From NCBI GenBank assembly GCA_965231155.1, contig OZ246418.1:42266-106265 (forward strand): a stretch of 64,000 nt of DNA, written 5' to 3'. Shown here piece after piece: positions 40,345-59,470 of the stretch. Position 1 is the stretch's first letter, and every line of letters begins with the position of its first letter. Under the pieces are notes generated by a model. The model did no database searches. It saw nothing but the letters and a program-made list of their open reading frames with translations, and had not been told where the DNA came from. This DNA comes from an uncultured Candidatus Saccharibacteria bacterium (GTDB taxonomy: Bacteria; Patescibacteriota; Minisyncoccia; UBA6257; 2-01-FULL-56-20). A program made the position numbers and the translations under genes.

Positions 40345-40365
40345 AGCCCGAGGGGATAGGAGTCG

Positions 40366-41178: not shown

Positions 41179-41339
41179 AGGTTGGAGTGATTATATTCCT
41201 ACCCCATCTCAATATCCAGTTGAAAGACTGGACGAAGAGCTGTCGACAACTCCCCCTTCGCAAGGTCCCAGATCTAAGCTAGGAATGGACAAGAAAGGTC
41301 GAAAATCGGTACAATTCCTTTACAACTAAATAGCCGTAA

Positions 41340-41545: not shown

Positions 41546-41548
41546 TTT

Positions 41549-42229: not shown

Positions 42230-42233
42230 TTTC

Positions 42234-44639: not shown

Positions 44640-44643
44640 ATTC

Positions 44644-45117: not shown

Positions 45118-45131
45118 CAAAGTGTTGGATG

Positions 45132-45332: not shown

Positions 45333-45431
45333 GCCCTCATCCTACTCCTTTAAGGCTTCCTGACAAGCTGTGTCGCACAATCATATGTTGTATGACCACA
45401 CAATAAGCTATTAGAATGGTCCTATAAGGGC

Positions 45432-46025: not shown

Positions 46026-46046
46026 AACTTGCGGAACCGAGAGTGA

Positions 46047-47264
46047 TCACTGACGCTTCACTCCCGCTCTCCAAAATAGTCCTAGAAGAATTGTGCCTAC
46101 TCCCGCAACGATAAGGGCAGTAGTAGAAAAACCCATAATATCAAGCAGGATACCAAGAAGAAGTGGGGCAGTCAGATCGCCAAGGTTAATAATCCCTTCG
46201 AAGGCACTCCCCCGTTCGCCGTAGGTAGCCGGTGAACTGAATGATGTTACCAAACCTTTCTGGATGATAGCGAACCACTCAAGAACAATTCCCAAAATAA
46301 AGCTGGCCAGAAGCTTGAACCCATAATCCGGAAAAAGCACGAGACCGATCGTAACTCCTACAATGGTTACCAAGCCCAGAGCAATCAACTGATATTTATT
46401 ATGATGATCGGCAACTTTTCCCAGTGCATATCCAAATAGTGATGGGATAGTCCCTACGATACCCAACAGAATCACCATGGCCGGTTGAGCACCATCAATA
46501 TAAGCATCGATCGGAATAAAGAAGGAGATCAAAGTGCCAATAAGGGAAGAAAAGAACATAAGGGTACCCAGAAGGCGCAGATCTCCATTCCAACTGATCC
46601 ATTCCTGAATGGCCATCCGATAGGAAGCGAGCACTGAAGCTTTTCCGGATTCCGCAACCGGAGGTACTACATCGTCTGGAGCTTTCAAGGCTATAAAGAA
46701 GGCCAGCAATGCAAACGGAATAATTCCCCCAAGTAAGTAGTAAATTGGTACAAATTTGACTAGGGCCATACCAATCAAGGCTGAGCCGATCCAACCAAAG
46801 TTAGCGACCATATCCATGTATCCAAAAGATGAGTTCACATCAGTCGAATCGGTACTCCGGCGATAATAGGTATCCACCCCAATATTATTCATGCTCCACC
46901 CTATGCCGTTCACTACCCGAGCAAATACCACAAAGATTGCCATCCCAGTCATCCCCGCAAGCAGATAACCAAAACCTACCAACGGATATAGGAGTAAAGA
47001 AAAAAGGATTATTTTCTTGGCGGAACTCCGGTCGGCCCACTCACCGACTAAAGGAAGACATAGCAAACCGGTAATGTCTATAAGGGAACGAAAAAGCCCC
47101 GCTTCCGCGAATGTCTGAGAAAAATGGAATAAAAAAAGCGGGATAAGAGACTCGCCAAATCCCCAGCCAATCCAATGAGCCGTACGAGCCCAAGCAATGA
47201 TCCGCACCCCTTGGGATAGTGATCCTTTCTTGTGTTTGCGGGAGAAGGCACCGTGCAGTGACAT
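46047..47264 (-). CDS. MFS transporter
   Basis: 12-TM profile with MFS-type loop motif between TM2 and TM3 (GEWADRSSAKK). Confidence 0.65.
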   Translation of the reverse strand: MSLHGAFSRKHKKGSLSQGVRIIAWARTAHWIGWGFGESLIPLFLFHFSQTFAEAGLFRSLIDITGLLCLPLVGEWADRSSAKKIILFSLLLYPLVGFGYLLAGMTGMAIFVVFARVVNGIGWSMNNIGVDTYYRRSTDSTDVNSSFGYMDMVANFGWIGSALIGMALVKFVPIYYLLGGIIPFALLAFFIALKAPDDVVPPVAESGKASVLASYRMAIQEWISWNGDLRLLGTLMFFSSLIGTLISFFIPIDAYIDGAQPAMVILLGIVGTIPSLFGYALGKVADHHNKYQLIALGLVTIVGVTIGLVLFPDYGFKLLASFILGIVLEWFAIIQKGLVTSFSSPATYGERGSAFEGIINLGDLTAPLLLGILLDIMGFSTTALIVAGVGTILLGLFWRAGVKRQ

Positions 47265-47272
47265 AGCCTCGA

Positions 47273-47914
47273 TTATATCATCTGTTCCGTATATCCCAAT
47301 TCGATAAGTCGCTCATAAGCTTTCCAAATATCGTCTGGAATTTCCTGAGCAATTTGGAATCCATTTTCGCCATAGAGTTTGATTCGCTGAAGATCGCCAA
47401 CCATAATGTTTATAACATCTTCTTTGGAGCGAAGATGGTCGGGATACTCTTCGAATGATATCGGCGGCGAAGTCACAATGACATCTTTCTCCGGCCATCG
47501 TTTTCTGAAAGTAGCATACGATCGTCGCTCCATGTACGGTTTCTGGACGACAATAAACTTTTGTAGGTCAATTCCTTTTTCTTCTAAGAGCTTCCTTGTG
47601 AATAAAATATTCTCTCCGGTATTCGTAGACTTGTTTTCTACGATGATCTTATCTTCGGGAACTCCCATTTTGATTGCAATTTCTGCGAACCTATCCCCTT
47701 CTGTTTTATCCCATAATCCTTCGGTTAGTCTGCCTAGACCACCGGAGAAGATAATCAGCGGTGCCCAGTCTTCGAGAAGCAGTTTGCTGGCATATTCCGC
47801 CACTCGTTCGTCGTGACTCCCGAGGACTAAAATACATTCAGCTTTTTCGAGCTTCTGATTCATGTGGTGGTAGTCCCAAATCTTTTTGGCGAGAGTCTCA
47901 ATTTCGGATTCCAT
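47273..47914 (-). CDS. DUF218 (YdcF/SanA-family) protein
   Basis: ILVLGSHDERV...IFSGG...TNTGENI pattern of DUF218. Confidence 0.55.
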   Translation of the reverse strand: MESEIETLAKKIWDYHHMNQKLEKAECILVLGSHDERVAEYASKLLLEDWAPLIIFSGGLGRLTEGLWDKTEGDRFAEIAIKMGVPEDKIIVENKSTNTGENILFTRKLLEEKGIDLQKFIVVQKPYMERRSYATFRKRWPEKDVIVTSPPISFEEYPDHLRSKEDVINIMVGDLQRIKLYGENGFQIAQEIPDDIWKAYERLIELGYTEQMI

Positions 47915-47916
47915 AT

Positions 47917-48243
47917 CTATTTCTGATTTTCTAATCTGTCCATTTCTTGCATAATCAAGCCATAAAGATCCTCCTCTCCTTCCTGATGAGCTTGGAGTCT
48001 GGTCTCTTCATAGGTTTCCAATGCTTCTTCCTTGTAGCCAGCCGAGGCAAGCACAAAAGCTCGTTCGATATTCACAATGATGTTTGCTCTGCTGGTATTC
48101 ACTGCATCAGCAATTCTTTCTTGCTGGATGATGTAGTCGACAAATAATTGCCTTGCTTCAAGGTCTTCGATTTTCTTATTTCGAAGAGTCTCAATGACTT
48201 TCTCCTGACTAATGGTTTCCTGATTAGGAATGGATTCTTTCAT
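47917..48243 (-). CDS. Hypothetical protein
   Basis: 108-aa acidic helical ORF. Confidence 0.3.
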   Translation of the reverse strand: MKESIPNQETISQEKVIETLRNKKIEDLEARQLFVDYIIQQERIADAVNTSRANIIVNIERAFVLASAGYKEEALETYEETRLQAHQEGEEDLYGLIMQEMDRLENQK

Positions 48244-48506
48244 TAGACGTGGCTGATGGATTGATGGCTCTCTTTACGCCATTCTCTCCGTAAAGATACA
48301 AGGTCGAGGTTCTGTTTTTCTAATTCAAACTGTTGTACAAAAACCGGAAACCAATTATCGGAAGAAGTAGGTCTACCTTCTCCATCGTAGGCTGCGTTTC
48401 CTTTTCTTTTGCTTTGAAAGTTCATGGTTCCGAAACTCTCTGAGTCGGTATTAGTAAAGAAGACTTCTCCTTGTTGAGTTTCGGGATGCATGAACTCTTT
48501 AACCAT
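48243..48506 (-). CDS. Hypothetical protein
   Basis: 87-aa ORF. Confidence 0.3.
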   Translation of the reverse strand: MVKEFMHPETQQGEVFFTNTDSESFGTMNFQSKRKGNAAYDGEGRPTSSDNWFPVFVQQFELEKQNLDLVSLRREWRKESHQSISHV

Positions 48507-48558
48507 TCCCCTATTATATCACTGGTTCAACTCCGAGCATCTAAACAAATAAAAAAAC

Positions 48559-49224
48559 CTATACCCGATTTCCAAATATAGGCTTTTTCTTTTTTGCCAC
48601 AATGAAATTATTTAAACGATAAGAAAATACTCTCTCTATATTAAATCCTGCCCCTTCTAAGAGCTTGCCCAACTCAGTTTGATCGTACACATGTTTTTGA
48701 ATCTCGAAAATTGGTCCCAGATATCGGAAAATAAGTTTTCCCAAAAAAGTATCGGCTCCGGGATCGGCCAAAAGAAATCTCCCCTCCCCTCGTAATACGC
48801 GAAATATTTCTCGAAGCGTCTGCTCCGGATTCCAAAAGTGGTGAAAAGCCTCGGATGAAATAACAAGATCGAATGATTCTTTTTCAAAGGGCATAGACTC
48901 CACACCGCCCAGGACGAAGGAAGTAGTGGCGGTGCCCTCTGTCTTCCTCTTTGCCTCGGCGACCATCTGAGGCGAGGCGTCGATTCCCACAAACTGACTC
49001 TCTGGATATGCCCTTGCTAAACGGGCAAGAACCTCTCCCGTACCACAAGCCACATCAAGCACGCGAGACTGCCTGTGAATCAAATGCTCCCCCTCGATTA
49101 TTTCAATTAGTTTCTTATACAAAGGTTCAAAATAAAACCTGGAAATACGTGAGTCGTACTGGCTAGCCATGCGATTAAATAACGCCGTGGTCTTACTTTC
49201 AAATTTTATTTTTTGGTCGTCCAT
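48559..49224 (-). CDS. Class I SAM-dependent methyltransferase
   Basis: Motif I VLDVACGTGEV, motif post-I GIDASPQMV. Confidence 0.75.
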   Translation of the reverse strand: MDDQKIKFESKTTALFNRMASQYDSRISRFYFEPLYKKLIEIIEGEHLIHRQSRVLDVACGTGEVLARLARAYPESQFVGIDASPQMVAEAKRKTEGTATTSFVLGGVESMPFEKESFDLVISSEAFHHFWNPEQTLREIFRVLRGEGRFLLADPGADTFLGKLIFRYLGPIFEIQKHVYDQTELGKLLEGAGFNIERVFSYRLNNFIVAKKKKPIFGNRV

Positions 49225-49227
49225 GTT

Positions 49228-49662
49228 TTACCAGTTTTTACAGCACTCAATAATTTTTTGACCAATTCTCCGCCAACGAGGATGCGCGTATAAAACAAAG
49301 ATGCCACCGAATATTATCCATAACCCGACAAGGAGAGGCATGGTTAAATTTATATCCGTCGTTTGCTTTCCGATCAGCCAGTAGGCAGTCGCAAAGAAAG
49401 TAAGGAGTGTCGGAAATTTGAAGATCTGATACTTCTCGGAAGCCTTAGAAAAAAGATAGTACATTCCCCCGACTGCGCTTCCCCCGAGGAGAATACCAAG
49501 AAGAATCGGATCGCCCTCTTCGTAAAACCAGTAATTATAGAGGAGAATGAGCCACGTCAAACTAACCGAAATACAAAGGGCGCATATTTTTTTACTAACA
49601 ATCTCTCGGGCAAGTAACCCCAGAAGAAAAAAACCGATAAGAATGACGACGGCAAAGGTCAT
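49228..49662 (-). CDS. Membrane protein with CxxC (CALC) and C-terminal CC motifs
   Basis: Four TM segments. Cys pairs possibly metal/thiol-active. Adjacent to copper cluster. Confidence 0.35.
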   Translation of the reverse strand: MTFAVVILIGFFLLGLLAREIVSKKICALCISVSLTWLILLYNYWFYEEGDPILLGILLGGSAVGGMYYLFSKASEKYQIFKFPTLLTFFATAYWLIGKQTTDINLTMPLLVGLWIIFGGIFVLYAHPRWRRIGQKIIECCKNW

Positions 49663-50180
49663 AGGAAGATTTGGATGAGCGCTGAGACTATGATCAAGAG
49701 CGCGAAGGTAATGCTTACTCCTTGATACGGCAAGAACTTTCCCTTTCTTAAAGTGGTTACAAGTCGGCTCACGTACGGCGCGATCAGAATGATTACCGCA
49801 CCAATCGCCACCCCCACCAAGAAAAGATCGATGGTATAGGTATTATGAAATAACGTTCCATATTTTCCCCACCAACTGATGTAGAGCGGATCGTAATCCC
49901 GGATCAATGGCATGATGGGGATAATCGTGCCCAAGAAAATTAAAATGGAAAGGATACAATACTGCGCCGGAATATACTTTTTCTTTGGCAGCCCAGCAAG
50001 CCACATACCCAAGGCTAACGCGAACGCCCCAATCATGACGCCAACAATCACCGAAGAAATTCCCAGAGATACCGCGAGAACCGCGAGCACGCCGGCTCCA
50101 GCTGTACACAAGGGACAGTGGGCCAGAGCCAACTTAGGGAAAAACAACAACGATAGAGGTAGCCAAAGAAATTTCTTCAT
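49659..50180 (-). CDS. Membrane protein with N-terminal HCPLC motif
   Basis: Signal/TM then CPLC. Four further TM segments. 4-nt overlap with preceding gene. Confidence 0.35.
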   Translation of the reverse strand: MKKFLWLPLSLLFFPKLALAHCPLCTAGAGVLAVLAVSLGISSVIVGVMIGAFALALGMWLAGLPKKKYIPAQYCILSILIFLGTIIPIMPLIRDYDPLYISWWGKYGTLFHNTYTIDLFLVGVAIGAVIILIAPYVSRLVTTLRKGKFLPYQGVSITFALLIIVSALIQIFL

Positions 50181-50182
50181 AG

Positions 50183-50674
50183 TTAGTATTTCATGAACTC
50201 ACCGATCGAACCGTCTTTTCCCAGGGCAAAGATAGTCCACTCTCCGGTTTTCTGACCAGGCATACCAGGTGATCCCGCAGGCATGCCGGGCAAAGCGATA
50301 CCCTTGATATCCGGCTTTTCGGTCAGTAGTTTATTAATGATCTCAAGCGGAATATGGCCTTCGATCACATAGTCTCCGATCACCGTCGTATGACAGCTCT
50401 GTAGATTGGCTGGAATACCATACTGGTTTTTGATCGGAGTAAGATCAGGAAGATTTTCTATTTTCACCGACAGGCCTTCGTGCTTCAGATATTCAGCGTA
50501 GACCTGACAACAGCCGCAGGTGGGAGTTTTGTAGACGGTCGCCTGAAGGGCTAATCCCACAGTACCAGTTTTTGGAGCCTCCTGACTATTCGTAAAGGTA
50601 CCGATAAGAACCAGACCGCCGATCACCACCACCGCTCCGAGAAACAAGATTTTGTTTGTAGCATATTTTTTCAT
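50183..50674 (-). CDS. DUF411-like periplasmic metal-binding protein
   Basis: Signal anchor, then TCGCC motif characteristic of DUF411 proteins, often found in copper-resistance loci. Met/Pro/Gly-rich GMPAGSPGMPG segment. Confidence 0.5.
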   Translation of the reverse strand: MKKYATNKILFLGAVVVIGGLVLIGTFTNSQEAPKTGTVGLALQATVYKTPTCGCCQVYAEYLKHEGLSVKIENLPDLTPIKNQYGIPANLQSCHTTVIGDYVIEGHIPLEIINKLLTEKPDIKGIALPGMPAGSPGMPGQKTGEWTIFALGKDGSIGEFMKY

Positions 50675-50687
50675 GAGTGAGTGATTT

Positions 50688-51290
50688 TTATTTGGACCAA
50701 GCCTTTTCCCAACTCCGCATCATCTCAATCTCTTTGGACTGCGAGGTGATAATCTGATCGGCCAATTCTTTCATCTCCGCCCGATCGGTTGTCGAGGCAA
50801 GCATCCGGGCCATCATCACCGCCATCTCGTGATGCGGAATCATCTGTCGGATAAACTCTAAGTCAAAATCTTTGGCGCTACTTAAAACATCTAAATCTCC
50901 ACTCATACTATCCATATGCATCATACCGCCACCCATCATACCCATACTTTGATTCGTTGCCGGAACCTGCGCGCCAAACCAATTCTCGTACCATCCTTTC
51001 ATACTCACGATCTCGCGCTGTTGTGCTTCAATAATTCCATTCGCCAAAGAAAGTATCTCCGGCCGTTTTGATTTTTTGAGCGCCAGTTCGGCCATCGCGA
51101 TCGCCCCGTCGTGATGCGGAATCATCTGCTCAATGAAATGCTGATCGATATTTCCCATCATTGATCCGCTTGAACCTCGATAGAAACCTCCCATCATTCC
51201 TCTCATTCCCCATCCACCGAAGAGCAGTGGCGTAAGAAGTACGCCGACTAACACTCCTCCTAAACCAACGATTATGTTTTCTTTTGTCAT
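50688..51290 (-). CDS. DUF305 protein (tandem duplicated, copper-resistance associated)
   Basis: Two copies of the MIPHHxxA...M motif (MIPHHDGAIAMA and MIPHHEMAVMMA). Met/Gly-rich linker. Confidence 0.7.
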   Translation of the reverse strand: MTKENIIVGLGGVLVGVLLTPLLFGGWGMRGMMGGFYRGSSGSMMGNIDQHFIEQMIPHHDGAIAMAELALKKSKRPEILSLANGIIEAQQREIVSMKGWYENWFGAQVPATNQSMGMMGGGMMHMDSMSGDLDVLSSAKDFDLEFIRQMIPHHEMAVMMARMLASTTDRAEMKELADQIITSQSKEIEMMRSWEKAWSK

Positions 51291-51301
51291 GTTTTTATTA
51301 T

Positions 51302-53287
51302 TTATAAAGTTTTCTGTCGCAGTAGCACAGCATTCACCGCCACAATTACTGTGGAGAGGGACATGAGTGCTGCTGCTAATGCTGGCTCAAGAAACAATCC
51401 CCACGTCGCGAATACTCCAGCAGCTAACGGAATGGCAATCACGTTGTACCCCGTAGCCCAGAAAAGATTCTGGATCATCTTCCGATAGGTCAGACGAGAA
51501 AGTTTGATGATCTTCACAATGTCTCTCGGATCATTTCTGACGAGAATTATTCCCGCTGATTCAATGGCCACATTCGTTCCTGCGCCAATTGCTATCCCCA
51601 AGTCTGCTTGTGTGAGCGCCGGAGCGTCATTGATCCCATCCCCCACCATAGCGACCTTTTTGCCCTGTTCTTGAAGCAGTTTCACTTTTTCCGATTTATC
51701 TTTCGGCATAACGCGGGCAAAGTAGTCATCAAGGTTCAATTCTTTGGCCACCCAGCGAGCGACATCCTCAGCATCTCCCGTAATCATCATCACCTTTACT
51801 CCTGTGCTCTGAAGGTCACGGACCGCATCCCGGGATTCTTCGCGAATAATATCGGCGAGAGCGATAGCACCAACAAGCGCATCATTTTGGATAACATACA
51901 CAACAGTTTTTCCTTCTTCGGAAAGCGTGGCGACTTTCCGCTTGAACTCCTCTCCTCCTGCAATATGCTTACCTAGAATCAACGACTCGCTCCCCACCAC
52001 TACTTTATTTCCGCCGACTGTCGCGGCCGATCCCTGTCCGGGTAAACGAGTAAATTCTTCGATTCGCGGCAAAGAAATGTTTCTCTTCTCGGCTTCGCGA
52101 ATGATTGACTTGGCGATGGGATGCTCCGACTGGCTATCAACGGCGGCGGCCAAAGCGAGAACTTCTTCCTCGCTCTTGCTTTCTGCGGGAATGATATTAG
52201 AAACTCCGAACTCACCGCGAGTGAGCGTTCCTGTCTTATCGAATAGAACCGTATCAATATTTCTGGCCGCTTCGAGCGCCAAACGTTGCTTTACCAAAAA
52301 TCCATTCTGAGCAGCTTTCGTTGTAGATATAGAAGCCACTAACGGAATGGCCAAACCAAGTGCATGGGGACAAGCGATGACCAAAACCGCGACCATCCGC
52401 TCGATCGCAAACGAAGGCTCGGCAAAGAAAAGCCAAGCAATTAAAGTAGCTAAGCCGGTCGCGATAGCAATGATCGTGAGGTAATATGCGGCTCTATCTG
52501 AAAGTATCTGCAAGCGAGACTTCGAGGCTTGAGCTTCGGAAACAAGCCGCATCACTCCAGCTAAAAATGTATGCTCACCAATTTTATTTATTTTAACGGT
52601 GAGGGAGCCATCACCATTTACTGTTCCAGCGATTACCTCATCTCCTTCTTTTTTAGAGACTGGCTTTGATTCTCCGGTCGCTACTGACTCGTTTACTTCG
52701 GAGGTTCCTTCTAGGACCATACCATCAGCAGGAATTGTGCTTCCAGGTCGGACCAAAACCATATCTCCTTCCTTGAGTTGATCGAGAGGAATCACCACTG
52801 TCTTACCATCACGAATAACCTCGGCTTGATCCGGCAGAAGTTTAGAAAGCTCCTTCAAAGCACCTTGAGCACCGGAGACTGCTCGCATTTCGATCCAGTG
52901 TCCAAGAAGCATGATCGTAATCAGAGTTGCTAGTTCCCAGAAAAGAGTATGCGATTCTCCTCTTAAGAAAATGTAAAGACTATAGATATATGCTACCGAA
53001 ATCGCGAGAGAAATCAGGGTCATCATTCCCGGCAGTTTGGCCTTGATTTCGTTCTGGGCGCTTTTTATAAATACCCACCCTCCATACAAGAAGATGATTG
53101 AAGAAAGTATCGGAGAAATAAACTGCCACCCAGGAAACAAAGGTGGTTGCCAGTTAAAAAGCATCGGGACGATATCCGAGTAAAGTAATACCGGAATCGT
53201 TAATACAAAAGATACGAGGAATTTCTTTTTGAAGGCTTCCGTATGATGCCCAGCGTGCTTATTGAACTTATGTATATTGTGGTCCAT
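51302..53287 (-). CDS. copB: Copper-translocating P1B-type ATPase (CopB-like, His-rich N-terminus, no HMA domain)
   Basis: CPH motif in TM6 (IACPHALGLA), DKTGTLT phosphorylation site, GDGINDAP hinge. N-terminal HKFNKHAGHH. Confidence 0.9.
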   Translation of the reverse strand: MDHNIHKFNKHAGHHTEAFKKKFLVSFVLTIPVLLYSDIVPMLFNWQPPLFPGWQFISPILSSIIFLYGGWVFIKSAQNEIKAKLPGMMTLISLAISVAYIYSLYIFLRGESHTLFWELATLITIMLLGHWIEMRAVSGAQGALKELSKLLPDQAEVIRDGKTVVIPLDQLKEGDMVLVRPGSTIPADGMVLEGTSEVNESVATGESKPVSKKEGDEVIAGTVNGDGSLTVKINKIGEHTFLAGVMRLVSEAQASKSRLQILSDRAAYYLTIIAIATGLATLIAWLFFAEPSFAIERMVAVLVIACPHALGLAIPLVASISTTKAAQNGFLVKQRLALEAARNIDTVLFDKTGTLTRGEFGVSNIIPAESKSEEEVLALAAAVDSQSEHPIAKSIIREAEKRNISLPRIEEFTRLPGQGSAATVGGNKVVVGSESLILGKHIAGGEEFKRKVATLSEEGKTVVYVIQNDALVGAIALADIIREESRDAVRDLQSTGVKVMMITGDAEDVARWVAKELNLDDYFARVMPKDKSEKVKLLQEQGKKVAMVGDGINDAPALTQADLGIAIGAGTNVAIESAGIILVRNDPRDIVKIIKLSRLTYRKMIQNLFWATGYNVIAIPLAAGVFATWGLFLEPALAAALMSLSTVIVAVNAVLLRQKTL

Positions 53288-53299
53288 AGATCTAAAAAT

Positions 53300-53569
53300 T
53301 TATTTCTTCTTTGATCGTTTATAGACGGTCATAATCTCCTTCATAGCCTGTGCCTCCTTACCACTCTTCATCTGCTCAACCACATGAGTCGTGAGGTGAT
53401 TTTCTAATAAAAGATCTTCGACACTCGATAAGGCCTCTTTGATCGCCGAAGACTGAGTGATGATGTCTATGCAATATTTCTCCTCATCGACCATGCGCTC
53501 CAATCCCCGTACCTGTCCCTCGATCCGATGCAACCGAGAAGTTAATTTATTTTTAATGTCTTTTCTCAT
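53300..53569 (-). CDS. csoR: CsoR/RcnR-family metal-sensing repressor
   Basis: RLHRIEGQVRGLERMVDEEKYCIDIITQSSAIKEA: CsoR signature with Cys (C-x-D-I) and the His/Cys ligand set. Confidence 0.8.
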   Translation of the reverse strand: MRKDIKNKLTSRLHRIEGQVRGLERMVDEEKYCIDIITQSSAIKEALSSVEDLLLENHLTTHVVEQMKSGKEAQAMKEIMTVYKRSKKK

Positions 53570-53574
53570 AACCC

Positions 53575-53599
53575 CATTATACCCCCCTAGGGTATAATG
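53575..53599. promoter_or_regulatory. 25-bp palindrome CATTATACCCCCCTAGGGTATAATG: CsoR-box-like operator (ATACCC-N-GGGTAT) with symmetric -10 TATAAT hexamers on both strands (divergent promoter)
   Basis: Perfect 10-bp arms around a CCCTAGGG core, seen directly. Sits 6 nt upstream of the csoR start and about 180 nt upstream of the first cassette gene on the + strand. Confidence 0.5.
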
Positions 53600-53616
53600 T
53601 CAACATCCTGTTAAAA

Positions 53617-53756
53617 CTGTCTCATTTGTCTCATTTAGCCCTAGACCGAGACGGGTCAGTTATTACCCTATTCTGACCCCCAAAGAACCCTTATACTGAT
53701 TGAAAGTTCCTGGTACTAGACCGAGGAACACAGCCACCTTGAGATAGGTTCCTCGG
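53617..53756 (+). repeat. Leader repeat copy 1 (modules W gtctcatttgtctcattt, X gaccgagacgggtcag, Z tatactgattgaaagttcctggtactagaccgaggaacacag...ccaccttgagataggtt) upstream of gene 53777
   Basis: Roughly 140 nt, highly similar to 59288-59470 upstream of unrelated gene 59515. Ends in hairpin CCTCGG-gtc-CGAGG that pairs with the GAGGAG RBS. Confidence 0.5.
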
Positions 53757-53776
53757 GTCCGAGGAGCATTAAAGAT

Positions 53777-54439
53777 ATGTTTGAATGGCTAAAAGATAAA
53801 ACAATCGGAAAGTTCAGGCGCTGGAAGTCTCGACTATTTCTACGTATTATCGGAGAACTACATAAAGAACGCATGCGCGAACGCTTAAAAGACGTCCCCG
53901 CAGAACTGAAAGAGTATCATGCCAGAGAGACCATAATGAATGGAAATAGCACCGCACTGCATAATCTTTATAGAAAGGCCAAAGATAGCAAAAAGTTTCA
54001 GGAGGCATTTTTGTATTTTTTCTATGAGTTTGAAATAAATCTTAAGCATATGATCATGTCCGAGATGATGGTTGCAAACAGCATGGAGGCACTCAAACGT
54101 GACGAGAATAATCATTTCCCCATATATTCGGAAGATGAGGTATTAAAAATTCAAAAAATTGGACATATTTCCACTCTGATAGAAAAATTTTCCTCCGTTC
54201 ATGGTGATGAGATTGAAGATAGCTTAAAGGCCATCAACGACGCAAGAAATTTCATCATTCACAACATGCTAAAGGAGGAAATGAACGAAGGGCAGATTGA
54301 AAAATCATTTGAATACTTCTTCGTAGCCACCAATGGTCACATCAATAAAGCTTATAGATTTTTTGATAAAACGCTCGAAGAAAGACCCGAAAAAATACTG
54401 GCTACAGTGAAAAAGATTGCAGTAGAGAAGATACGCTAG
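53777..54439 (+). CDS. Hypothetical alpha-helical protein with HEPN-type R-N-x3-H motif
   Basis: C-terminal KAINDARNFIIHNML (RNxxxH). Mostly helical composition. Cassette 1 of the array. Confidence 0.4.
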   Translation: MFEWLKDKTIGKFRRWKSRLFLRIIGELHKERMRERLKDVPAELKEYHARETIMNGNSTALHNLYRKAKDSKKFQEAFLYFFYEFEINLKHMIMSEMMVANSMEALKRDENNHFPIYSEDEVLKIQKIGHISTLIEKFSSVHGDEIEDSLKAINDARNFIIHNMLKEEMNEGQIEKSFEYFFVATNGHINKAYRFFDKTLEERPEKILATVKKIAVEKIR

Positions 54440-54463
54440 AATTCCGTCCGAGGAGCATCAGAA

Positions 54464-54823
54464 ATGGAAGATTCAATATCATTGCAACTCGCAAAACAGT
54501 ATCTCGGAAAAGAGGTTGAGGTGACTATGGACCGACCGCTTGGAACTAAACATCCCAAGCATGGCTTTATATATGAAGCGAACTACGGTTTTATTGAAGG
54601 AGTAGAAGCTCCTGACGGAGAAGATCTGGACGCCTACTACCTGGGAGTGCAAACACCTCTTCAACAAGCAAAAGGAGTTTGTATTGCAATAGCCCATCGC
54701 AGAGACAATGACGACGACAAACTGATTGTCGTTCCCAAAGGAACTAAATTAACAGATGAGCAGATTATGCTTGCAATCCATTTCCAAGAGCAGTGGTTTG
54801 ATACAGGAATCGTTAGAAAATGA
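54464..54823 (+). CDS. Small protein with degenerate inorganic-pyrophosphatase-like acidic motif
   Basis: APDGEDLDAYY resembles family I PPase D-x-D-x-x-D signature in degenerate form. 119 aa. Confidence 0.3.
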   Translation: MEDSISLQLAKQYLGKEVEVTMDRPLGTKHPKHGFIYEANYGFIEGVEAPDGEDLDAYYLGVQTPLQQAKGVCIAIAHRRDNDDDKLIVVPKGTKLTDEQIMLAIHFQEQWFDTGIVRK

Positions 54824-54868
54824 CCCGTCCGAGGAGGGTCAAAAGGTAAGATAAAGAAACTTAAGAAA

Positions 54869-54914
54869 AGCCTCTGGTGGTCTCACTTTTTAAATATCCG
54901 AGACCGAGGAGGCC
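54869..54914 (+). repeat. Y-module hairpin copy 1 (CCTCTGGTGGTCTC-actttttaaatatcc-GAGACCGAGGAGG) pairing RBS with upstream CCTC
   Basis: One of three near-identical copies (also at about 55605-55650 and 56735-56773), each 10-20 nt upstream of a different start codon. Confidence 0.5.
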
Positions 54915-54922
54915 AGACGGCC

Positions 54923-55558
54923 ATGGGCCTTGAACAACGTAATAACGGAAGCGATATACTTAAGCTAATGGAACCAGAAATTAAACTTGTAGTCGAAGAA
55001 TCATTAACAAAAGTAAAGCGCATTTTCAACGTGGAAGATGTTTCAGCTCAAGTCGAAGAAGATCCCTCCCAGGTGATTCCTGAAACCGGCGCAGGCGGCT
55101 CCACTCCCGACTCACATACCATCTGCGTCTATTACGACTCCAACAATAAAAATCTTAGGAAAAATTTTCGGGAGGAAATCAAGAGCACGGTAACGCATGA
55201 ATTCCACCATGCAATCAGGAATAGGACCTACAACTGGAAGGAAGATACACTGCTTGGCGCGATAATCAGCGAAGGACTTGCCGATCACTTTGATATAGAA
55301 GTAAACAGTGGAAAACCAAAACCTTGGTCTGTTGCCCTAACTGATACTGAGCTAGAAAGAGTTGAAGAAATTGCTACCCCTGAATTGAATAGTCGCGAAT
55401 ACAACCACGCGGATTGGTTCTTCGGTTCGAAAAAAAGAAATATTCCCAGATGGGCAGGGTATGCGATGGGTTTTAAACTTGTGGGCGAATACCTGAAAAA
55501 GACCGGCAAGAAAGCTTCTGCGTTAGTTGCCGAACCTGCGAGATCTTTCTTTGACTAG
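54923..55558 (+). CDS. Putative zincin-like metallopeptidase (HExxH)
   Basis: THEFHHAIRN HExxH motif with downstream Glu/Asp-rich segment. Roughly DUF2268-like arrangement (inference). Confidence 0.35.
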   Translation: MGLEQRNNGSDILKLMEPEIKLVVEESLTKVKRIFNVEDVSAQVEEDPSQVIPETGAGGSTPDSHTICVYYDSNNKNLRKNFREEIKSTVTHEFHHAIRNRTYNWKEDTLLGAIISEGLADHFDIEVNSGKPKPWSVALTDTELERVEEIATPELNSREYNHADWFFGSKKRNIPRWAGYAMGFKLVGEYLKKTGKKASALVAEPARSFFD

Positions 55559-55604
55559 TGCTCGAGATGGATTGGAACGGTAGCATAAAGAAACCTCAGA
55601 AAAA

Positions 55605-55650
55605 CCTCTGGTGGTCTCACTTTTAAAATATCCGAGATCGAGGAGGCCAG
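55605..55650 (+). repeat. Y-module hairpin copy 2
   Basis: cctctggtggtctcacttttaaaatatccgagatcgaggaggccag; followed by an X-like gagaccgagacggatca segment. Confidence 0.5.
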
Positions 55651-55727
55651 CACGAGTCAGCGCGGTATCGTATGAGACCGAGACGGATCATATTTTGCTA
55701 ATTCTTGAAAAAGATTAGAATGGGAGC

Positions 55728-56156
55728 ATGTCTCAGGATTTGCCACAAAAAGAATTGATAATCGCCGTAGTGGAAAAAGACAGCGCTTTATTAATGCGAA
55801 AAAAGCCAGCTGGATCTCCTCCGTATGTAGAAACCTGGTATTCGCTGGGATGCGATCGAATTCCCGGCCAGGATGATCCAACCACTATAAAGAATTATTT
55901 GAAATCAGAAGTTGGCATCGACGTTGAAGTTGATCCTAAATCGATTCCCTTTGGAACTGAAATTAAAGAAGATCACGATGGCATTACCAAGAATTTTATC
56001 TACGTTAACCTCCTTTGTCATTATCTCGGCGGCACACCCAAGATACCCAAAGGCGCTGAAAAAATTGAATGGCTACCAAAAAATAGTTTGGGATCATTTG
56101 ATATCGTACCACCCTCAATAAATCTTTTTAAATCTCTTGGGTATCTAAATTCTTAA
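55728..56156 (+). CDS. Hypothetical protein, weak NUDIX-like layout
   Basis: ELIIAVVEKDSALLMRKK...G(x5)...SEVGI weakly resembles a Nudix fold start. Low confidence. Confidence 0.25.
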   Translation: MSQDLPQKELIIAVVEKDSALLMRKKPAGSPPYVETWYSLGCDRIPGQDDPTTIKNYLKSEVGIDVEVDPKSIPFGTEIKEDHDGITKNFIYVNLLCHYLGGTPKIPKGAEKIEWLPKNSLGSFDIVPPSINLFKSLGYLNS

Positions 56157-56157
56157 A

Positions 56158-56688
56158 ATGCGCAAAAGAAATCTTGGGAAGCTTGAACAATACGATTATA
56201 TCGATGACGAATTTATTGGAGAAACCAGCCCTGATTATATCGAAGCTATCGGCCTATTTGTGCTTGAATTTAGCGCTCTGGAACATGAAATAAATTTACG
56301 AATTGCAGATCAAATTAACGATAGAGCACACTTTCAAGGATATCAGGTCATTGAACTTTTATCCTCAAAAGATAAGATTGATTTATTTTCGAGATGGGTT
56401 GGCGCTTATATGGTCATGGGCAATAGTAAAAAGAAAACTCGATTTAATCGCCTCGTTCAAAAGCTTCGAGAATTAAATGCATTTCGAAATAAAGTTCTGC
56501 ATGCCAATTGGATGTCTGCGGCTAAGGATGGCACAGTTAGAACTCGTATCGTCATCAACGAGGGAGAAGGCGCTGTTCGCTTCGAGAGAACAAAAATCAC
56601 TCCAACATTAATTAATAAAAAATCGGAAGAATGCTCCAGGGCGAGAGATGAGCTCGATGAGATTATGGAGGGAGCTTATAACAGCTAG
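56158..56688 (+). CDS. Hypothetical protein with HEPN-type R-N-x3-H motif
   Basis: LRELNAFRNKVLHANWM (RNxxxH), very similar in local context to the motif in gene 53777 (N-[DA]-[AF]-R-N-x-[IV]-[IL]-H-[NA]-N). Start codon overlaps previous stop (TAAAATG). Confidence 0.4.
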   Translation: MRKRNLGKLEQYDYIDDEFIGETSPDYIEAIGLFVLEFSALEHEINLRIADQINDRAHFQGYQVIELLSSKDKIDLFSRWVGAYMVMGNSKKKTRFNRLVQKLRELNAFRNKVLHANWMSAAKDGTVRTRIVINEGEGAVRFERTKITPTLINKKSEECSRARDELDEIMEGAYNS

Positions 56689-56734
56689 ACCGAGACGGGT
56701 CAGTTACTCCCCTACTACGACCCTCAGAAAACCC

Positions 56735-56773
56735 TTTGGTGGTCTCACTTTTTAAATATCCGAGACCGAGGAG
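56735..56773 (+). repeat. Y-module hairpin copy 3, preceded by X-module copy (56686-56736)
   Basis: tagaccgagacgggtcagttactcccc...aaccctttggtggtctcactttttaaatatccgagaccgaggag. Confidence 0.5.
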
Positions 56774-56877: not shown

Positions 56878-58188
56878 ATGGCACAAGAAAACACTGCGGT
56901 TCAAGACGCTGGAGCTTCCCCAATGGAAGCGGATCTTCGAAACATTCCCATTGATCTCATCGATCCAGATCCTCGTCAACCCCGCACCGACTTCGACGAA
57001 GAAGCCCTAAATGCGCTGGCCGAGAACATAGAGGCAGTAGGGGGCTTACTCCAAACCGTTGTAGTTCGTCCATCACCTACTGATCCGGGTCGCTTCATGC
57101 TGATCGGTGGCGAACGGCGATACCGTGCTTCGAAAAAAGCCGGGTCAAGCACTCTTCCTTGCATCGTCCGGCAGGGCGATAGGATTCCCTTCGTCATGTC
57201 TATGGTTGAGAACATGCTCCGGGCAAGTCTCAACCCCATCGAAGAGGCGCGCGCCTTTAGACGATGCCACGACGAGTATGGGATGTCGTATCACGAGATT
57301 GACCGAACTTTCAAATTCAAACGAAAGAAATCGGAAAACGTGGTGCGCCTTCTGGAACTGCCGGAAGAAATTCAGCAAATGGTGGAGAACGGCACATTGC
57401 CGCCAAGCTATGCGCTGGGTTTACATCAGTACGCTGAAACCCGAGACGTCGTCGCCATGGCCTACGCCCTTGCCGATGGACGTGATCCCGGGGTTGTCTT
57501 GCCAAAACGGAAGACAAAATATGTTAAAGGTGAGCCGAAACCAACGGAGTTTCGAGAGTATTTCCTGTTAGCCAAACAGAGTGATCGTGTGAGAAGACTC
57601 GCCGATGCACTTCTGGCACACGACACAGGGATACAGCGTCGGGCGTGGATGAAGAACTCACGCACGAGCAGAACGAACCTTCAACTCAATCTTCGTGCCA
57701 TGGCAATTGCCTTCGGGCAAATGACTGCTCGACTCGAAGATCTCGAGAAACCATCAACAGTAACGTTCTCGCCTGCGTCAGAAGCCAAGTCGAGCCCTCT
57801 TACTCGGCCGACAACTCCGCCCAAGAAACCGACGCAGGAAAAATGGTTACCTCTCCCGGACGAAAGCACCTTCGAAAAAATCGCTGGAGTAATTCGATTG
57901 GTCTCCTTTGATCGCAGGGGAGGTAGACTTGCCTACCTGAGCGAAGAACGTCTCAAGCGGAAGGGATGCTCACCGGAACTCCTCCTCGAAGCCTTACGAG
58001 TTTTTCGAGATCAGTGGAATCGAGAACCGGCCACAGGGAATACTCAGGTAGAACGAGAATTCCTGGGGTTTCTCAAGGGAACTCGCGAAAATTCCGGGTG
58101 TAACCAGTTTTTCAGTTTTATCGGAAAACTCAGAGATCTAGATACCTCCGAAGATCCAGTTCCTCTGAGCCCCCTATCAGACGACTAA
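56878..58188 (+). CDS. ParB/Srx-domain protein with long Pro/Thr/Arg-rich C-terminal extension (GC-rich gene)
   Basis: LIDPDPRQPR...LLQTVVVRP...LIGGERRYRASKKAG: ParB N-terminal domain with GERRxRA motif. RBS AGGGAGG 7 nt upstream of ATG at 56878. Codon usage distinctly GC-rich. Confidence 0.65.
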   Translation: MAQENTAVQDAGASPMEADLRNIPIDLIDPDPRQPRTDFDEEALNALAENIEAVGGLLQTVVVRPSPTDPGRFMLIGGERRYRASKKAGSSTLPCIVRQGDRIPFVMSMVENMLRASLNPIEEARAFRRCHDEYGMSYHEIDRTFKFKRKKSENVVRLLELPEEIQQMVENGTLPPSYALGLHQYAETRDVVAMAYALADGRDPGVVLPKRKTKYVKGEPKPTEFREYFLLAKQSDRVRRLADALLAHDTGIQRRAWMKNSRTSRTNLQLNLRAMAIAFGQMTARLEDLEKPSTVTFSPASEAKSSPLTRPTTPPKKPTQEKWLPLPDESTFEKIAGVIRLVSFDRRGGRLAYLSEERLKRKGCSPELLLEALRVFRDQWNREPATGNTQVEREFLGFLKGTRENSGCNQFFSFIGKLRDLDTSEDPVPLSPLSDD

Positions 58189-59287: not shown

Positions 59288-59470
59288 ACCGTCTCGTTTG
59301 TCTCATTTTTACCCGACCAAGGTGGGTCAGCAACTCCCCTGTTCCTACCCAAAAAACCCTTACACTGATTGAAAGTTCCCAGTACTAGACCAAGGAACAC
59401 AGTAACTGAGCGAGAGCGAAGGAGTACTGAGGTTAGTAGGCCGAATGTGCCACCTTGAGATAGGTTTCCA
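59288..59470 (+). repeat. Leader repeat copy 2 (W-X-Z modules with a ~45-nt insertion) upstream of gene 59515
   Basis: gtctcgtttgtctcattttt...gggtcag...aacccttacactgattgaaagttcccagtactagaccaaggaacacag...ccaccttgagataggtt; compare 53617-53756. Confidence 0.5.

What the first reader, a model, noticed from the sequence alone, without database searches (positions are those of the whole stretch)
53777..56688. Cassette-like array of five small unrelated genes, two carrying HEPN RNxxxH motifs, each with a standardised RBS context
Five consecutive + strand genes (220, 119, 211, 142, 176 aa) with no mutual similarity are separated by recurring modules and share the translation-initiation context (G/T)CCGAGGAG-N9-11-ATG. 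The first and last have near-identical local motifs (NDARNFIIHN / NAFRNKVLHAN) matching the established HEPN RNase catalytic motif. Another has HExxH, another a degenerate PPase-like acidic motif. The organisation resembles an integron-type or defence-island cassette array, but with no integrase and with a different repeat logic.
Basis: partly seen in the sequence, partly recalled or inferred. Interest (0 to 1): 0.8.

Follow-up and report, generated by a model that had tools for sequence, protein, structure and literature searches.

The report
Gene cassettes beside a tRNA-Gln integration site
The five small genes sit in a patchwork of mobile DNA next to a 19.5-kb integrated element in a Patescibacteria (CPR) genome, and the repeats between them are copies of that element's conserved end, so this is an integration hotspot and not an integron.

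Summary
The five ORFs and the recurring intergenic modules are real. The "standardised RBS" holds for only three of the five genes. It comes from duplicated junction sequence: a 13-bp repeat around P1, a 12-bp repeat around P2, and the 3' end of a repeat copy in front of P3.

The modules are five copies of one ~91-nt, strand-specific element. Copies of it occur in at least 12 other distinct Patescibacteria loci. It usually starts at the stop codon of a variable gene and ends in CAGC, as tRNA-Gln does, and tRNA-Gln often lies just upstream.

Compared with a relative (L035), the window has a 19,467-bp insertion (34268-53734) between tRNA-Gln and the P1 leader. That insertion carries a large serine recombinase and ends in the element. 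A viral contig of the same element family shows the element joined directly to the "leader", as expected for an attP.

I read the array as recombinase-less cassettes stacked at this site, resembling SCC composite islands or tycheposons. The recombination itself is inferred, not shown.

- **P5:** HEPN, well supported.
- **P1:** probably HEPN.
- **P2:** the widespread short pyrophosphatase-like protein of Patescibacteria, probably not a defence gene.
- **P3:** a DUF2268 predicted metalloprotease.
- **P4:** weakly Nudix-like.

This is not an integron.

The parts
34196..34267 (+). tRNA-Gln(CTG). Proposed attachment site; its 3' end ...CCCGGCAGC is the left junction (attL) of the integrated element.
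   Evidence: ARAGORN and Rfam. L035 210-286 aligns to 34191-34267.
34268..53734 (.). 19,467-bp integrated element. It carries TPR-PIN, the large serine recombinase, LOOT RNA, ParB-methylase and the copper-resistance genes CopA and CsoR.
   Evidence: It is an insertion relative to L035, where tRNA-Gln and the P1 leader are contiguous; CAGC is present at both junctions. Pfam. Recombinase 54% identical to that of L008; ParB-methylase 59% identical to that of viral contig L040.
38341..39627 (-). Large serine recombinase, 428 aa (Resolvase + Recombinase + Zn_ribbon_recom). Candidate enzyme.
53644..53734 (+). Element copy 1: GACCGAGACGGGTCA ... GGTACTAGACCGAGGAACACAGC. Right end (attR side) of the integrated element.
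   Evidence: nhmmer E 2e-26. Homology to 13 other loci starts at about 53641-53645 and stops at 53734-53736.
53735..53776 (+). C-type leader (CACCTTGAGATAGGTTC...GTCCGAGGAGCAT), including the P1 Shine-Dalgarno sequence. 53757-53769 is the first copy of the 13-bp direct repeat.
   Evidence: The same leader follows tRNA-Gln in L035 and L036 and follows an element in L026.
53777..54439 (+). P1, probable HEPN-family protein (220 aa).
54446..54458 (+). Second copy of the 13-bp direct repeat GTCCGAGGAGCAT, which is also the P2 ribosome-binding site. 54444-54455 is the first copy of the 12-bp repeat CCGTCCGAGGAG (second copy 54825-54836).
   Evidence: three-way comparison with L035 and L036.
54464..54823 (+). 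P2, the short inorganic-pyrophosphatase-like protein of Patescibacteria (119 aa).
   Evidence: PF00719, 25.6 bits against a cut-off of 23.5. 1085 homologues found; the 120 listed are 71-100% identical to P2. PDB pyrophosphatases at E 0.01-0.05.
54822..54916 (+). Element copy 2, diverged, overlapping the P2 stop codon. Its 3' end GACCGAGGAGG supplies the P3 ribosome-binding site.
   Evidence: nhmmer over profile positions 7-100, E 0.019; alignment; repeat family D4.
54923..55558 (+). P3, DUF2268 predicted zinc metalloprotease (HEFHH).
   Evidence: Pfam E 3.2e-36.
55559..55652 (+). Element copy 3, with a degenerate 5' part, ending ...GAGGAGGCCAGC.
   Evidence: 89% identical to copy 2 over 75 nt; alignment.
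55653..55727 (+). F-type leader (ACGAGTCAGCGCGGTATCG...GAGACCGAGACGG) upstream of P4.
   Evidence: The same leader follows tRNA-Gln or an element end in L006, L008, L011, L014, L024, L028 and L040.
55728..56156 (+). P4, weakly Nudix-like (142 aa). Its stop overlaps the P5 start.
   Evidence: PDB NudG E 0.2; PADLOC PDC-S07 E 5.5e-4; no Pfam family.
56158..56688 (+). P5, HEPN-family protein (176 aa).
56686..56773 (+). Element copy 4, overlapping the P5 stop codon (TAGACCGAGACGGGTCAG...GACCGAGGAG).
   Evidence: nhmmer E 2.5e-9 over profile positions 7-100.
56878..58188 (+). ParB-like protein. The ORF opens at 56821, but the likely start is 56878, behind AGGGAGGA. It is followed by the first + strand terminator, at 58187-58209.
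59315..59402 (+). Element copy 5. It is followed by a 46-nt remnant of a GIY-YIG-type leader (59403-59448) and a second C-type leader (59449-59466).
   Evidence: nhmmer E 2.6e-21; 91% identical to copy 1 over 55 nt.

Best explanation
The five genes lie in a tRNA-Gln-associated integration hotspot of a Patescibacteria (CPR) chromosome.

A 19.5-kb integrative element carrying a large serine recombinase is inserted at the 3' end of tRNA-Gln. Its right end is a conserved ~91-nt element that finishes in CAGC, like the tRNA.

The genes that follow (P1-P2, then P3, then P4-P5, then the ParB-like segment) are small units without a recombinase, arranged head to tail. Each has the form [short leader] - gene(s) - [copy of the same element].

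The junction "element...CAGC | leader" has the layout of the family's attP. It is seen uninterrupted in a viral contig of the same family.

**Shown:**
- the insertion and its exact ends
- the recombinase
- the element family, its strand-specific placement and its sharp 3' boundary
- the 13-bp and 12-bp direct repeats bracketing P1 and P2
- the turnover of neighbouring genes in relatives

**Inferred:**
- that the serine recombinase makes these junctions
- that the small units were captured, and could be mobilised in trans, through the same sites, as in SCC composite islands or ICE/CIME accretion
- that the genes are read as one transcript
- that P1 and P5 are RNase effectors of defence or abortive-infection type

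The shared CCGAGGAG start context is part of the junction sequence. It doubles as a Shine-Dalgarno sequence, so an inserted unit brings or duplicates a ribosome-binding site for the gene behind it.
For: **Insertion**
- L035 has tRNA-Gln | C-leader - P1 contiguous.
- In the window the two halves are 19,467 bp apart (L035 210-286 = 34191-34267; L035 283-1008 = 53731-54459).
- The 4 nt CAGC are present at both junctions.

**Recombinase**
- Resolvase + Recombinase + Zn_ribbon at 38341-39627.
- It is 54% identical to the recombinase next to tRNA-Gln and a P1 homologue in L008.

**attP-like junction**
- Viral contigs L039 and L040 carry ParB-methylase (59% identical to the window's) and a serine recombinase.
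- In them an element-like sequence abuts the F-leader directly...GACAGTCAGC|ACGAGTCAGCGCAGTATCGAGG.
- Joining the window's right and left ends gives ...GGAACACAGC|AGTCTAGTTTAGTATCGA..., which resembles the contiguous junctions in L011 and L024.
- The last 23 nt of the element resemble the T-arm and acceptor 3' half of tRNA-Gln: GGTTCGAATCC...CAGC against GGTTCAAGACC...CAGC and GGTACTAGACC...CAGC.

**Element family**
- An nhmmer profile finds five copies in the window and none elsewhere in its 64 kb.
- It finds copies in 12 further distinct loci, from genomes titled Patescibacteria, Brennerbacteria and Saccharibacteria or from metagenomes.
- Homology always stops at 53734-53736.
- The element is better conserved than the neighbouring gene: 84% against 67% identity with L006.
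- The upstream ORF ends within the element's first few nucleotides or runs into it in 13 of 14 cases.
- tRNA-Gln lies just upstream on the same strand in nine of the other loci (L008, L012, L014, L016, L023-L025, L035, L036); seven of these also carry an element copy or a diverged one.

**Cassette junctions**
- Relative to L036 (tRNA-Gln | leader - ppa), P1 is a 689-bp insertion between 13-bp repeats.
- Relative to L035, P2 is a 381-bp insertion between 12-bp repeats.
- P3 is bracketed by 75-nt copies that are 89% identical.

**Cargo and transcription**
- Cargo differs at every locus.
- There is no intrinsic terminator inside the array.
Against: - No recombination product was observed; everything rests on comparing static sequences.
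- The element (~91 nt) is much longer than a serine-recombinase half-site (~25 nt). Its 5' two-thirds need another explanation.
- For serine recombinases attL and attR are normally inert without a directionality factor, so tandem accretion is not automatic.
- Copies 2 and 4 do not end in CAGC, and P3 has essentially no leader.
- Dyad symmetry around the proposed crossover is weak.
- The 4-nt identity does not fix the crossover point.
- Several element-bearing loci show no recombinase within the 8 kb held.
- P2 is probably a resident gene, so not every gene in the array is a captured cassette.
Confidence: 0.55

Rival explanations
1. The ~91-nt element acts at the RNA level. It would be a 3'-UTR or intercistronic module, such as a stabilising or terminating hairpin, a processing site, or a device that presents the ribosome-binding site. 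It would travel with horizontally moving genes, and the sharp CAGC end would be a functional RNA end.
For: - It is always co-oriented with the genes and starts at or within a few nt of the stop codon in 13 of 14 cases.
- A GGGTCAG/CTGACCC helix appears in the minimum-free-energy fold of about 8 of 14 copies, with compensatory changes in L006 and L023.
- Intergenic regions 1 and 2 fold better than shuffled sequence (z -2.6 and -2.4).
- The 3' motif GAGGAG serves as the ribosome-binding site for P3.
Against: - RNAalifold on 6 and on 14 copies finds only 4-bp hairpins and no covariation.
- Conservation is in blocks of primary sequence.
- No Rfam family matches, even at E up to 5.
- Two other intergenic regions fold no better than shuffled sequence.
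- The element also sits in front of convergent genes, where nothing lies downstream to regulate (L014, L016).
- This reading does not explain why tRNA-Gln and the element are interchangeable left neighbours of the same leaders.
Confidence: 0.2
2. No site-specific enzyme is involved. The conserved element, tRNA-Gln and the short leaders serve only as portable homology for ordinary recombination, possibly started by the small free-standing GIY-YIG endonucleases found at these sites. Genes are swapped between genomes in this way, as with the PeSL regulatory cassettes of T4-type phages or the minimal mobile elements of Neisseria.
For: - Small GIY-YIG genes sit directly after tRNA-Gln or after an element end in L012, L017 and L024; in L006 one follows tRNA-Asn. 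A leader remnant lies at 59403-59448.
- Element copies of 75-95 nt are long enough for homologous exchange.
- P3 is bracketed by 89%-identical copies.
- The P1/P2 arrangement looks like a recombinant between an L035-type and an L036-type unit through the shared 12-13 nt.
Against: - Junctions are precise. Homology ends at the same nucleotide in 13 loci, whereas homologous exchange would scatter breakpoints inside the repeat.
- The 19.5-kb insertion carries its own recombinase and has a tRNA-like end.
- There is no GIY-YIG gene in the window.
Confidence: 0.15
3. It is a classical integron array or a CALIN (a cluster of attC sites lacking an integrase).
For: The genes are promoterless, share one orientation and are unrelated, and each is followed by a repeat of 90-100 nt.
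Against: - No IntI-type tyrosine recombinase appears among the ORFs scanned from 31 to 63 kb.
- The repeat has direct CCGAG motifs at its two ends, not inverted R''/R' cores.
- There is no GTTRRRY core and no long imperfect hairpin on either strand.
Confidence: 0.02
4. It is an ordinary operon whose intergenic regions were duplicated locally, with no mobility.
For: The three D-type copies are close relatives of one another (71-89% identical). There is no terminator inside the array.
Against: - The same element and leaders occur in many other genomes next to unrelated genes.
- P1, P2 and P5 homologues never keep the same neighbours.
Confidence: 0.05

Closest known systems
Staphylococcal cassette chromosome (SCC/SCCmec) composite islands (from my own knowledge, not checked here)
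   Same: - A large serine recombinase.
- Insertion at the 3' end of one conserved gene.
- Head-to-tail arrays in which recombinase-less units (pseudo-SCC) are bounded by the same short att repeats.
- Cargo of adaptive or defence genes.
   Different: - The target here is tRNA-Gln, not rlmH (orfX).
- The repeated unit is a ~91-nt conserved end, not an ~18-bp direct repeat.
- The units are 0.4-1.2 kb with one or two genes.
- The phylum is Patescibacteria.
- No recombination has been demonstrated.
Tycheposons and tRNA-seeded genomic islands of Prochlorococcus (bioRxiv 10.1101/2020.12.28.424599)
   Same: - Elements integrate next to a specific tRNA.
- Successive integrations push older material outwards.
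- Degenerate elements and cargo accumulate, separated by att remnants.
- Defence and niche genes are the cargo.
   Different: - Most tycheposons use tyrosine recombinases, and the separators are partial tRNA copies of about 40 nt.
- Here the enzyme candidate is a large serine recombinase.
- The separator is only tRNA-like in its last 23 nt, and Rfam does not recognise it as a tRNA fragment.
Integrons and CALINs
   Same: An array of promoterless genes in one orientation, each followed by a repeat that begins at or near the stop codon. ORFs sometimes read into the repeat.
   Different: No IntI, no attI, no attC hairpin and no GTTRRRY core. The repeat motifs are direct, not inverted.
ICE/CIME accretion at a conserved gene's 3' end in Streptococcus thermophilus, ICESt1/ICESt3 (from my own knowledge)
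   Same: Elements that lack recombination genes but are flanked by att sites, lying in tandem with an autonomous element.
   Different: Those systems use a tyrosine integrase with identical cores of tens of bp and involve conjugative elements. The autonomous element here looks phage-like: a relative in L008 carries a terminase, and the family occurs in IMG/VR contigs.
HEPN superfamily (Pfam HEPN_RiboL-PSP, HEPN_Cthe2314, HEPN_Apea; the Csm6 HEPN domain)
   Same: An invariant R-N-x-x-x-H motif, a conserved acidic residue in the first helix (P5: E42), an all-helical bundle, and a defence-island neighbourhood.
   Different: Neither P1 nor P5 reaches any Pfam gathering score. Both represent unannotated families: 31 homologues for P1 and 407 cluster representatives for P5. 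There is no MNT partner.

Membership tests
HEPN superfamily (P5, 56158-56688) | Conserved Rx4-6H motif | tested here: met
   R110, N111 and H115 are invariant in 48 members down to 19% identity. E42 is also invariant.
HEPN superfamily (P5, 56158-56688) | Profile or sequence match to established HEPN families | tested here: inconclusive
   No hit for P5 itself. Among 48 relatives: HEPN_RiboL-PSP in 7 (best E 9.6e-4), Cthe2314 in 3, MAE_28990 in 1, Apea in 1; separately, Abi_2 in 2. Profile against PDB: Csm6' HEPN domain, E 0.033, with the motif aligned. All hits are consistent with HEPN but all lie below the curated cut-offs.
HEPN superfamily (P5, 56158-56688) | Four-helix up-and-down bundle with the motif on a core helix | tested here: inconclusive
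HEPN superfamily (P1, 53777-54439) | Conserved Rx4-6H motif | tested here: met
   R157, N158 and H162 are invariant in 17 homologues of 53-87% identity. This is a narrow family, so the test is weaker than for P5.
HEPN superfamily (P1, 53777-54439) | Profile match or fold match to HEPN | tested here: inconclusive
HEPN superfamily (P1 and P5) | RNase activity or toxicity that depends on the R and H residues | not testable with these tools
   Needs expression of wild-type and R/H mutant proteins.
HEPN-MNT toxin-antitoxin pair | An adjacent minimal nucleotidyltransferase partner | tested here: not met
   P4 has no Pfam or NCBIfam match and is only weakly Nudix-like. The P5 homologue examined (P0036; loci L031-L034) stands alone.
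Integron | IntI tyrosine recombinase with attI next to the array | tested here: not met
   Pfam on the ORFs from 31 to 63 kb finds only a serine recombinase. ORFs from 1 to 31 kb were not scanned.
Integron | attC sites: imperfect inverted repeats R''-L''/L'-R' with a GTTRRRY core, folding as a hairpin | tested here: not met
   The end motifs are direct repeats (CCGAG). Only 4-bp hairpins are predicted on either strand.
Serine-recombinase integrative element with tandem cassettes (SCC-like) | A large serine recombinase encoded in the element | tested here: met
   Resolvase + Recombinase + Zn_ribbon_recom at 38341-39627.
Serine-recombinase integrative element with tandem cassettes (SCC-like) | A precise insertion at one conserved site, with an empty site in a relative | tested here: met
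   L035 holds the uninterrupted site. The insertion is 34268-53734, with CAGC at both ends.
Serine-recombinase integrative element with tandem cassettes (SCC-like) | The joined ends (attP) seen in an excised or packaged form | tested here: inconclusive
   Viral contigs L039 and L040 of the same family have element-like sequence abutting the F-leader. This is not the window's own element, and whether those contigs are circular is unknown.
Serine-recombinase integrative element with tandem cassettes (SCC-like) | Recombinase-less units bounded by the same att-type repeats | tested here: met
   Five element copies bound P1-P2, P3, P4-P5 and the ParB segment. This holds at the sequence level only.
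Serine-recombinase integrative element with tandem cassettes (SCC-like) | The recombinase acts on these sites | not testable with these tools
   Needs a recombination assay or read-level detection of junctions.
Family I inorganic pyrophosphatase (P2) | Pfam PF00719 match and the acidic signature D-[SGDN]-D-[PE]-[LIVMF]-D | tested here: inconclusive
   25.6 bits against a cut-off of 23.5, but only profile positions 31-98 of 153 are covered. P2 has DGEDLD where the signature (quoted from my own knowledge of PROSITE) expects DxD[PE]xD. The protein is 119 aa against about 170-180. Homologues are annotated as pyrophosphatase by their sources.

The most novel reading that the evidence does not exclude
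Patescibacteria have a gene-capture platform of their own, anchored at tRNA-Gln. One- or two-gene cassettes that carry a ~91-nt end element plus a short leader (together an attP) would be inserted and excised in trans by the large serine recombinases of resident phage-like elements. They would be expressed by read-through from the tRNA or from upstream promoters. This would be a functional analogue of the integron built from unrelated parts, with the element's long conserved 5' region having a second, still unknown role.
Probability: 0.25. Interest if true: 0.8.

Novelty: new variant of a known kind. Interest (0 to 1): 0.5.

Why it matters
Patescibacteria have tiny genomes, are almost uncultured, and their gene traffic is poorly understood.

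If the reading is right, it supplies three things:
- **A searchable marker.** The ~91-nt element, absent from Rfam, marks variable-gene hotspots across several Patescibacteria classes.
- **A candidate recombinase with predicted sites.** The serine recombinase comes with predicted attB (the tRNA-Gln 3' end) and attP, which could be tested directly and might be useful as a tool.
- **Two unannotated HEPN-like families.** They recur in defence neighbourhoods of these bacteria.

It also explains an odd-looking "standardised RBS" as a consequence of how the pieces were joined.

If the reading is wrong, the element is still an unusually well conserved non-coding sequence of unknown function.

Tried and rejected
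**Rfam**
- The repeats match nothing at E up to 5.
- At gathering score the window holds only tRNA-Gln and LOOT RNA.

**Ideas from reading the element by eye, dropped for lack of tool support**
- SRP RNA.
- The 3' end of 23S rRNA.
- A tRNA-like structure. ARAGORN and Rfam see none, and the putative T-stem does not covary.
- A sigma-54 promoter.
- A sigma-70 promoter. No + strand site falls within an element copy or a leader, and the total of 9 sites equals the shuffle mean of 9.0.
- A dif-like 11-6-11 site; its symmetry is of the wrong kind.

**RNA structure**
- Consensus folds on both strands with 6 copies, and on the + strand with 14, gave only 4-bp hairpins.

**Collection scans**
- GTDB genomes scanned for the core of the D-type module: 0 hits.
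- Viral contigs scanned for the 21-mer of the element and for its 5' part: 0 hits each. Only the F-leader pattern hit, twice.

**Defence and phage libraries**
- PADLOC, PHROGs and NCBIfam gave nothing useful for P1 or P5.

**Look-ups**
- The exact-sequence look-up of the 571-aa antiporter failed.

**Assembly breaks**
- I first took the breaks in the Logan contigs at the repeats as a sign of genome-wide multicopy repeats. The local copies alone explain them: 37 nt are identical between copies 2 and 4.

**Literature**
- Searches for cassettes, tRNA-Gln hotspots or LOOT in Patescibacteria found no description of this element.

Full report
**1. What is in the sequence**

Their neighbours are:
- Left: a copper operon on the - strand, CopA at 51302-53287 and a CsoR-type repressor at 53300-53569. 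It has a perfect sigma-70 promoter at 53603-53576.
- Right: a ParB-like gene, then a sigma-54-type activator on the - strand.
- Further left: tRNA-Gln(CTG) at 34196-34267, a 1324-aa TPR-PIN protein, a large serine recombinase (38341-39627, - strand), a LOOT RNA and a ParB-methylase fusion.

The organism is a member of the Patescibacteria (CPR).
- The conserved 21-mer of the repeat occurs only in genomes titled Patescibacteria, Brennerbacteria, Saccharibacteria or "uncultured bacterium".
- Sources name P2 homologues as Patescibacteria, Pacebacteria, Kaiserbacteria, Azambacteria or Sungbacteria proteins.

**2. The observation**

The recurring modules are not chance.
- CCGAGGAG occurs 8 times against 2.0 expected, and five of these lie in 3 kb on one strand.
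- All six GACCGAG lie in 53644-56770 on the + strand.
- A 75-nt module occurs three times.

The shared start context holds for P1, P2 and P3 only. P4 has its own GGGAG, and P5 overlaps P4. The motif claims for the proteins hold (see section 7).

**3. The modules are one element family**

Reading the intergenic regions side by side and aligning them shows one ~91-nt element in five copies. A sequence profile built from copies in other genomes detects four of them; copy 3 was placed from the alignment.

| Copy | Coordinates | nhmmer E |
|---|---|---|
| 1 | 53644-53734 | 2e-26 |
| 2 | 54822-54916 | 0.019, full length |
| 3 | 55559-55652 | seen by eye and in the alignment |
| 4 | 56686-56773 | 2.5e-9 |
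| 5 | 59315-59402 | 2.6e-21 |

There are no copies anywhere else in the 64 kb.

The layout, from 5' to 3', is:
- G(A/T)CCGAG..GGGTCA
- about 25 nt
- (A)AGAAC(C/G)CTT
- about 25 nt, in two subtypes
- AGACCGAGGA(A/G)
- ..CAGC

The same element occurs in 12 further distinct loci fetched from genomes and metagenomes.
- Against the window, homology always begins near 53641-53645 and stops at 53734-53736.
- The element is better conserved than the adjacent coding sequence: 84% against 67% identity with L006.
- It is always on the same strand as the gene before it.
- In 13 of 14 cases that gene's stop codon lies within the element's first few nucleotides, or the ORF runs into it. This gives unrelated proteins the tail ..DRDGS*.

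**4. What the element is next to**

In nine of the other loci (L008, L012, L014, L016, L023-L025, L035, L036) a tRNA-Gln lies just upstream on the same strand. Seven of these also carry an element copy or a diverged one.

tRNA-Gln and the element both end in CAGC. Both are followed by the same small set of leaders:
- C type: YACCTTGAGRTAGGTTC...CGAGGAG
- F type: A(C/T)GAGTCAGCG..GTATCGAGG.AGACC
- a GIY-YIG gene leader

**5. The key comparisons**

- **L035**, whose P1 is 87% identical, has tRNA-Gln | C-leader - P1 with nothing in between. In the window the tRNA half aligns to 34191-34267 and the leader-P1 half to 53731-54459, and CAGC is present at both places. The window therefore carries a 19,467-bp insertion (34268-53734) whose right end is element copy 1. 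That insertion contains the serine recombinase.
- **The same family elsewhere.** The recombinase is 54% identical to the one beside tRNA-Gln in L008. The ParB-methylase is 59% identical to that of IMG/VR contig L040, which also has a serine recombinase.
- **An uninterrupted junction.** In L040 an element-like sequence runs straight into an F-leader (...GACAGTCAGC|ACGAGTCAGCGCAGTATCGAGG). This is what the joined ends (attP) of such an element should look like. The window's own ends, joined on paper, resemble the contiguous junctions of L011 and L024.
- **A tRNA-like end.** The last 23 nt of the element resemble the T-arm and acceptor 3' half of tRNA-Gln. This is usual for elements that target tRNA genes.

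**6. The five-gene stretch in this light**

- **L036** has tRNA-Gln(TTG) | C-leader - ppa, where ppa is an 87%-identical P2 homologue. Relative to it the window has a 689-bp insertion holding P1, bracketed by the 13-bp repeat GTCCGAGGAGCAT at 53757-53769 and 54446-54458.
- **Relative to L035,** P2 is a 381-bp insertion bracketed by CCGTCCGAGGAG at 54444-54455 and 54825-54836.
- These two repeats account for the identical start contexts of P1 and P2. The context of P3 is the 3' end of element copy 2.
- P3 lies between copies 2 and 3, which are 89% identical over 75 nt.
- P4-P5 have an F-leader in front and copy 4 behind.
- The ParB segment ends with copy 5.

The stretch therefore reads as head-to-tail units of the form leader - gene(s) - element. 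No intrinsic terminator occurs before 58187, so the units may be read as one transcript; this is inferred.

**7. The proteins**

- **P5.** A whole-library profile search finds 407 cluster representatives.
  - In 48 diverse members the only invariant residues are E42, R110, N111 and H115.
  - Twelve of the 48 give weak hits to HEPN families, and two more to Abi_2.
  - The profile finds the Csm6' HEPN domain with the motif aligned (E 0.033).
  - I take P5 as HEPN at about 85%.
- **P2.** It belongs to a very large and tightly conserved family of 117-124-aa pyrophosphatase-like proteins of Patescibacteria (1085 hits; the 120 listed are 71-100% identical to P2). It is probably a resident metabolic gene.
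- **P3.** A DUF2268 predicted zinc protease.
- **P4.** Only faintly Nudix-like.

Homologues of P1 and P5 elsewhere sit beside restriction-modification genes, AIPR, Mrr, HamA plus helicase, and an OLD/TOPRIM nuclease, and never with the same neighbours. Cargo at other element-bearing loci is equally varied.

**8. Interpretation and its limits**

The best reading is a tRNA-Gln integration hotspot. An autonomous serine-recombinase element sits there together with several recombinase-less units that share its end sequences. This is comparable to SCC composite islands, ICE/CIME accretion or tycheposon islands (for the last).

Not shown:
- any recombination event
- the crossover point
- how a serine recombinase would stack units
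- why about 65 nt beyond a normal half-site are so well conserved

An RNA-level role for the element cannot be excluded. One helix forms in about 8 of 14 copies, with two compensatory changes. Consensus folding, however, finds no covarying structure, and Rfam has no match.

An integron is excluded by the absence of IntI among the scanned ORFs and by the architecture of the repeat.

**9. Verdict**

- The finding is a new variant of a known kind of system, in a poorly studied phylum.
- It has one unexplained component, the long conserved element, and two unannotated HEPN-like families.
- Interest 0.5.

Noticed in passing
window 41346-41468; L006 3451-3564; L008 10720-10842: LOOT RNA (RF03000, 77-86 bits) lies inside the serine-recombinase element in all three loci; in the window and L008 it lies near the ParB-methylase gene, in L006 next to a methylase-Mrr gene. 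In Patescibacteria LOOT appears to be carried by this mobile-element family.
   Followed up: partly
window 59403-59448; L012 7388-7470; L024 12172-12255; L017 (- strand) 7892-7963: Small GIY-YIG endonuclease genes with a conserved hairpin leader (TTCGACTCGCT...CCTGAGCGAAGCCGAAGG) sit directly after tRNA-Gln or after an element end in relatives. The window keeps only a 46-nt remnant of that leader, with no ORF.
   Followed up: partly
window 53619-53636 and 59291-59308; L040 about 4320-4370: The motif GTCTCATTTGTCTCATTT lies just upstream of element copies 1 and 5. In viral contig L040 the same motif forms an inverted pair (AATGAGACA...TGTCTCATTTGTCTC) next to a TATAAT box, which looks like a repressor operator.
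   Followed up: no
window 34361-38335: A 1324-aa TPR protein with a PIN domain of the TPR-GreAB-C-PIN system (PF20698, E 8e-31) fills the slot between tRNA-Gln and the recombinase. In L008 a P1 homologue occupies that slot.
   Followed up: no
window 56821-56880: The ParB-like ORF opens at 56821, but a strong Shine-Dalgarno sequence (AGGGAGGA, 56865-56872) precedes the ATG at 56878, so the real start is probably 56878. G+C rises to 0.53 across 57001-58000, against about 0.44 around it.
   Followed up: partly
Logan contig SRR14271365_20136 = window 34227-54904 (L001, L041): An independent assembly of the same organism breaks inside tRNA-Gln at one end and inside element copy 2 at the other. Both are att-like repeats. 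This could reflect alternative arrangements in the population or simply repeat collapse.
   Followed up: partly
window 53580-53596: The palindrome ATACCCCCCTAGGGTAT lies between csoR and the array and overlaps the -10 box of the perfect sigma-70 promoter of the csoR-copA operon. It is a likely CsoR operator.
   Followed up: no
window 7381-12993: Three paralogous genes of about 590 aa lie in tandem on the - strand, with 60-77% nucleotide identity in several blocks (repeat families D1-D6).
   Followed up: no
L011 1278-1298; L016 4887-4907; L027 170-193; P1 homologues P0019, P0021, P0022, P0026, P0027: Unrelated proteins end in ..(S/G/P)DRDGS-like tails translated from the first 15 nt of the element. 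The element therefore supplies the C-terminus and the stop codon of whatever gene lies in front of it.
   Followed up: partly
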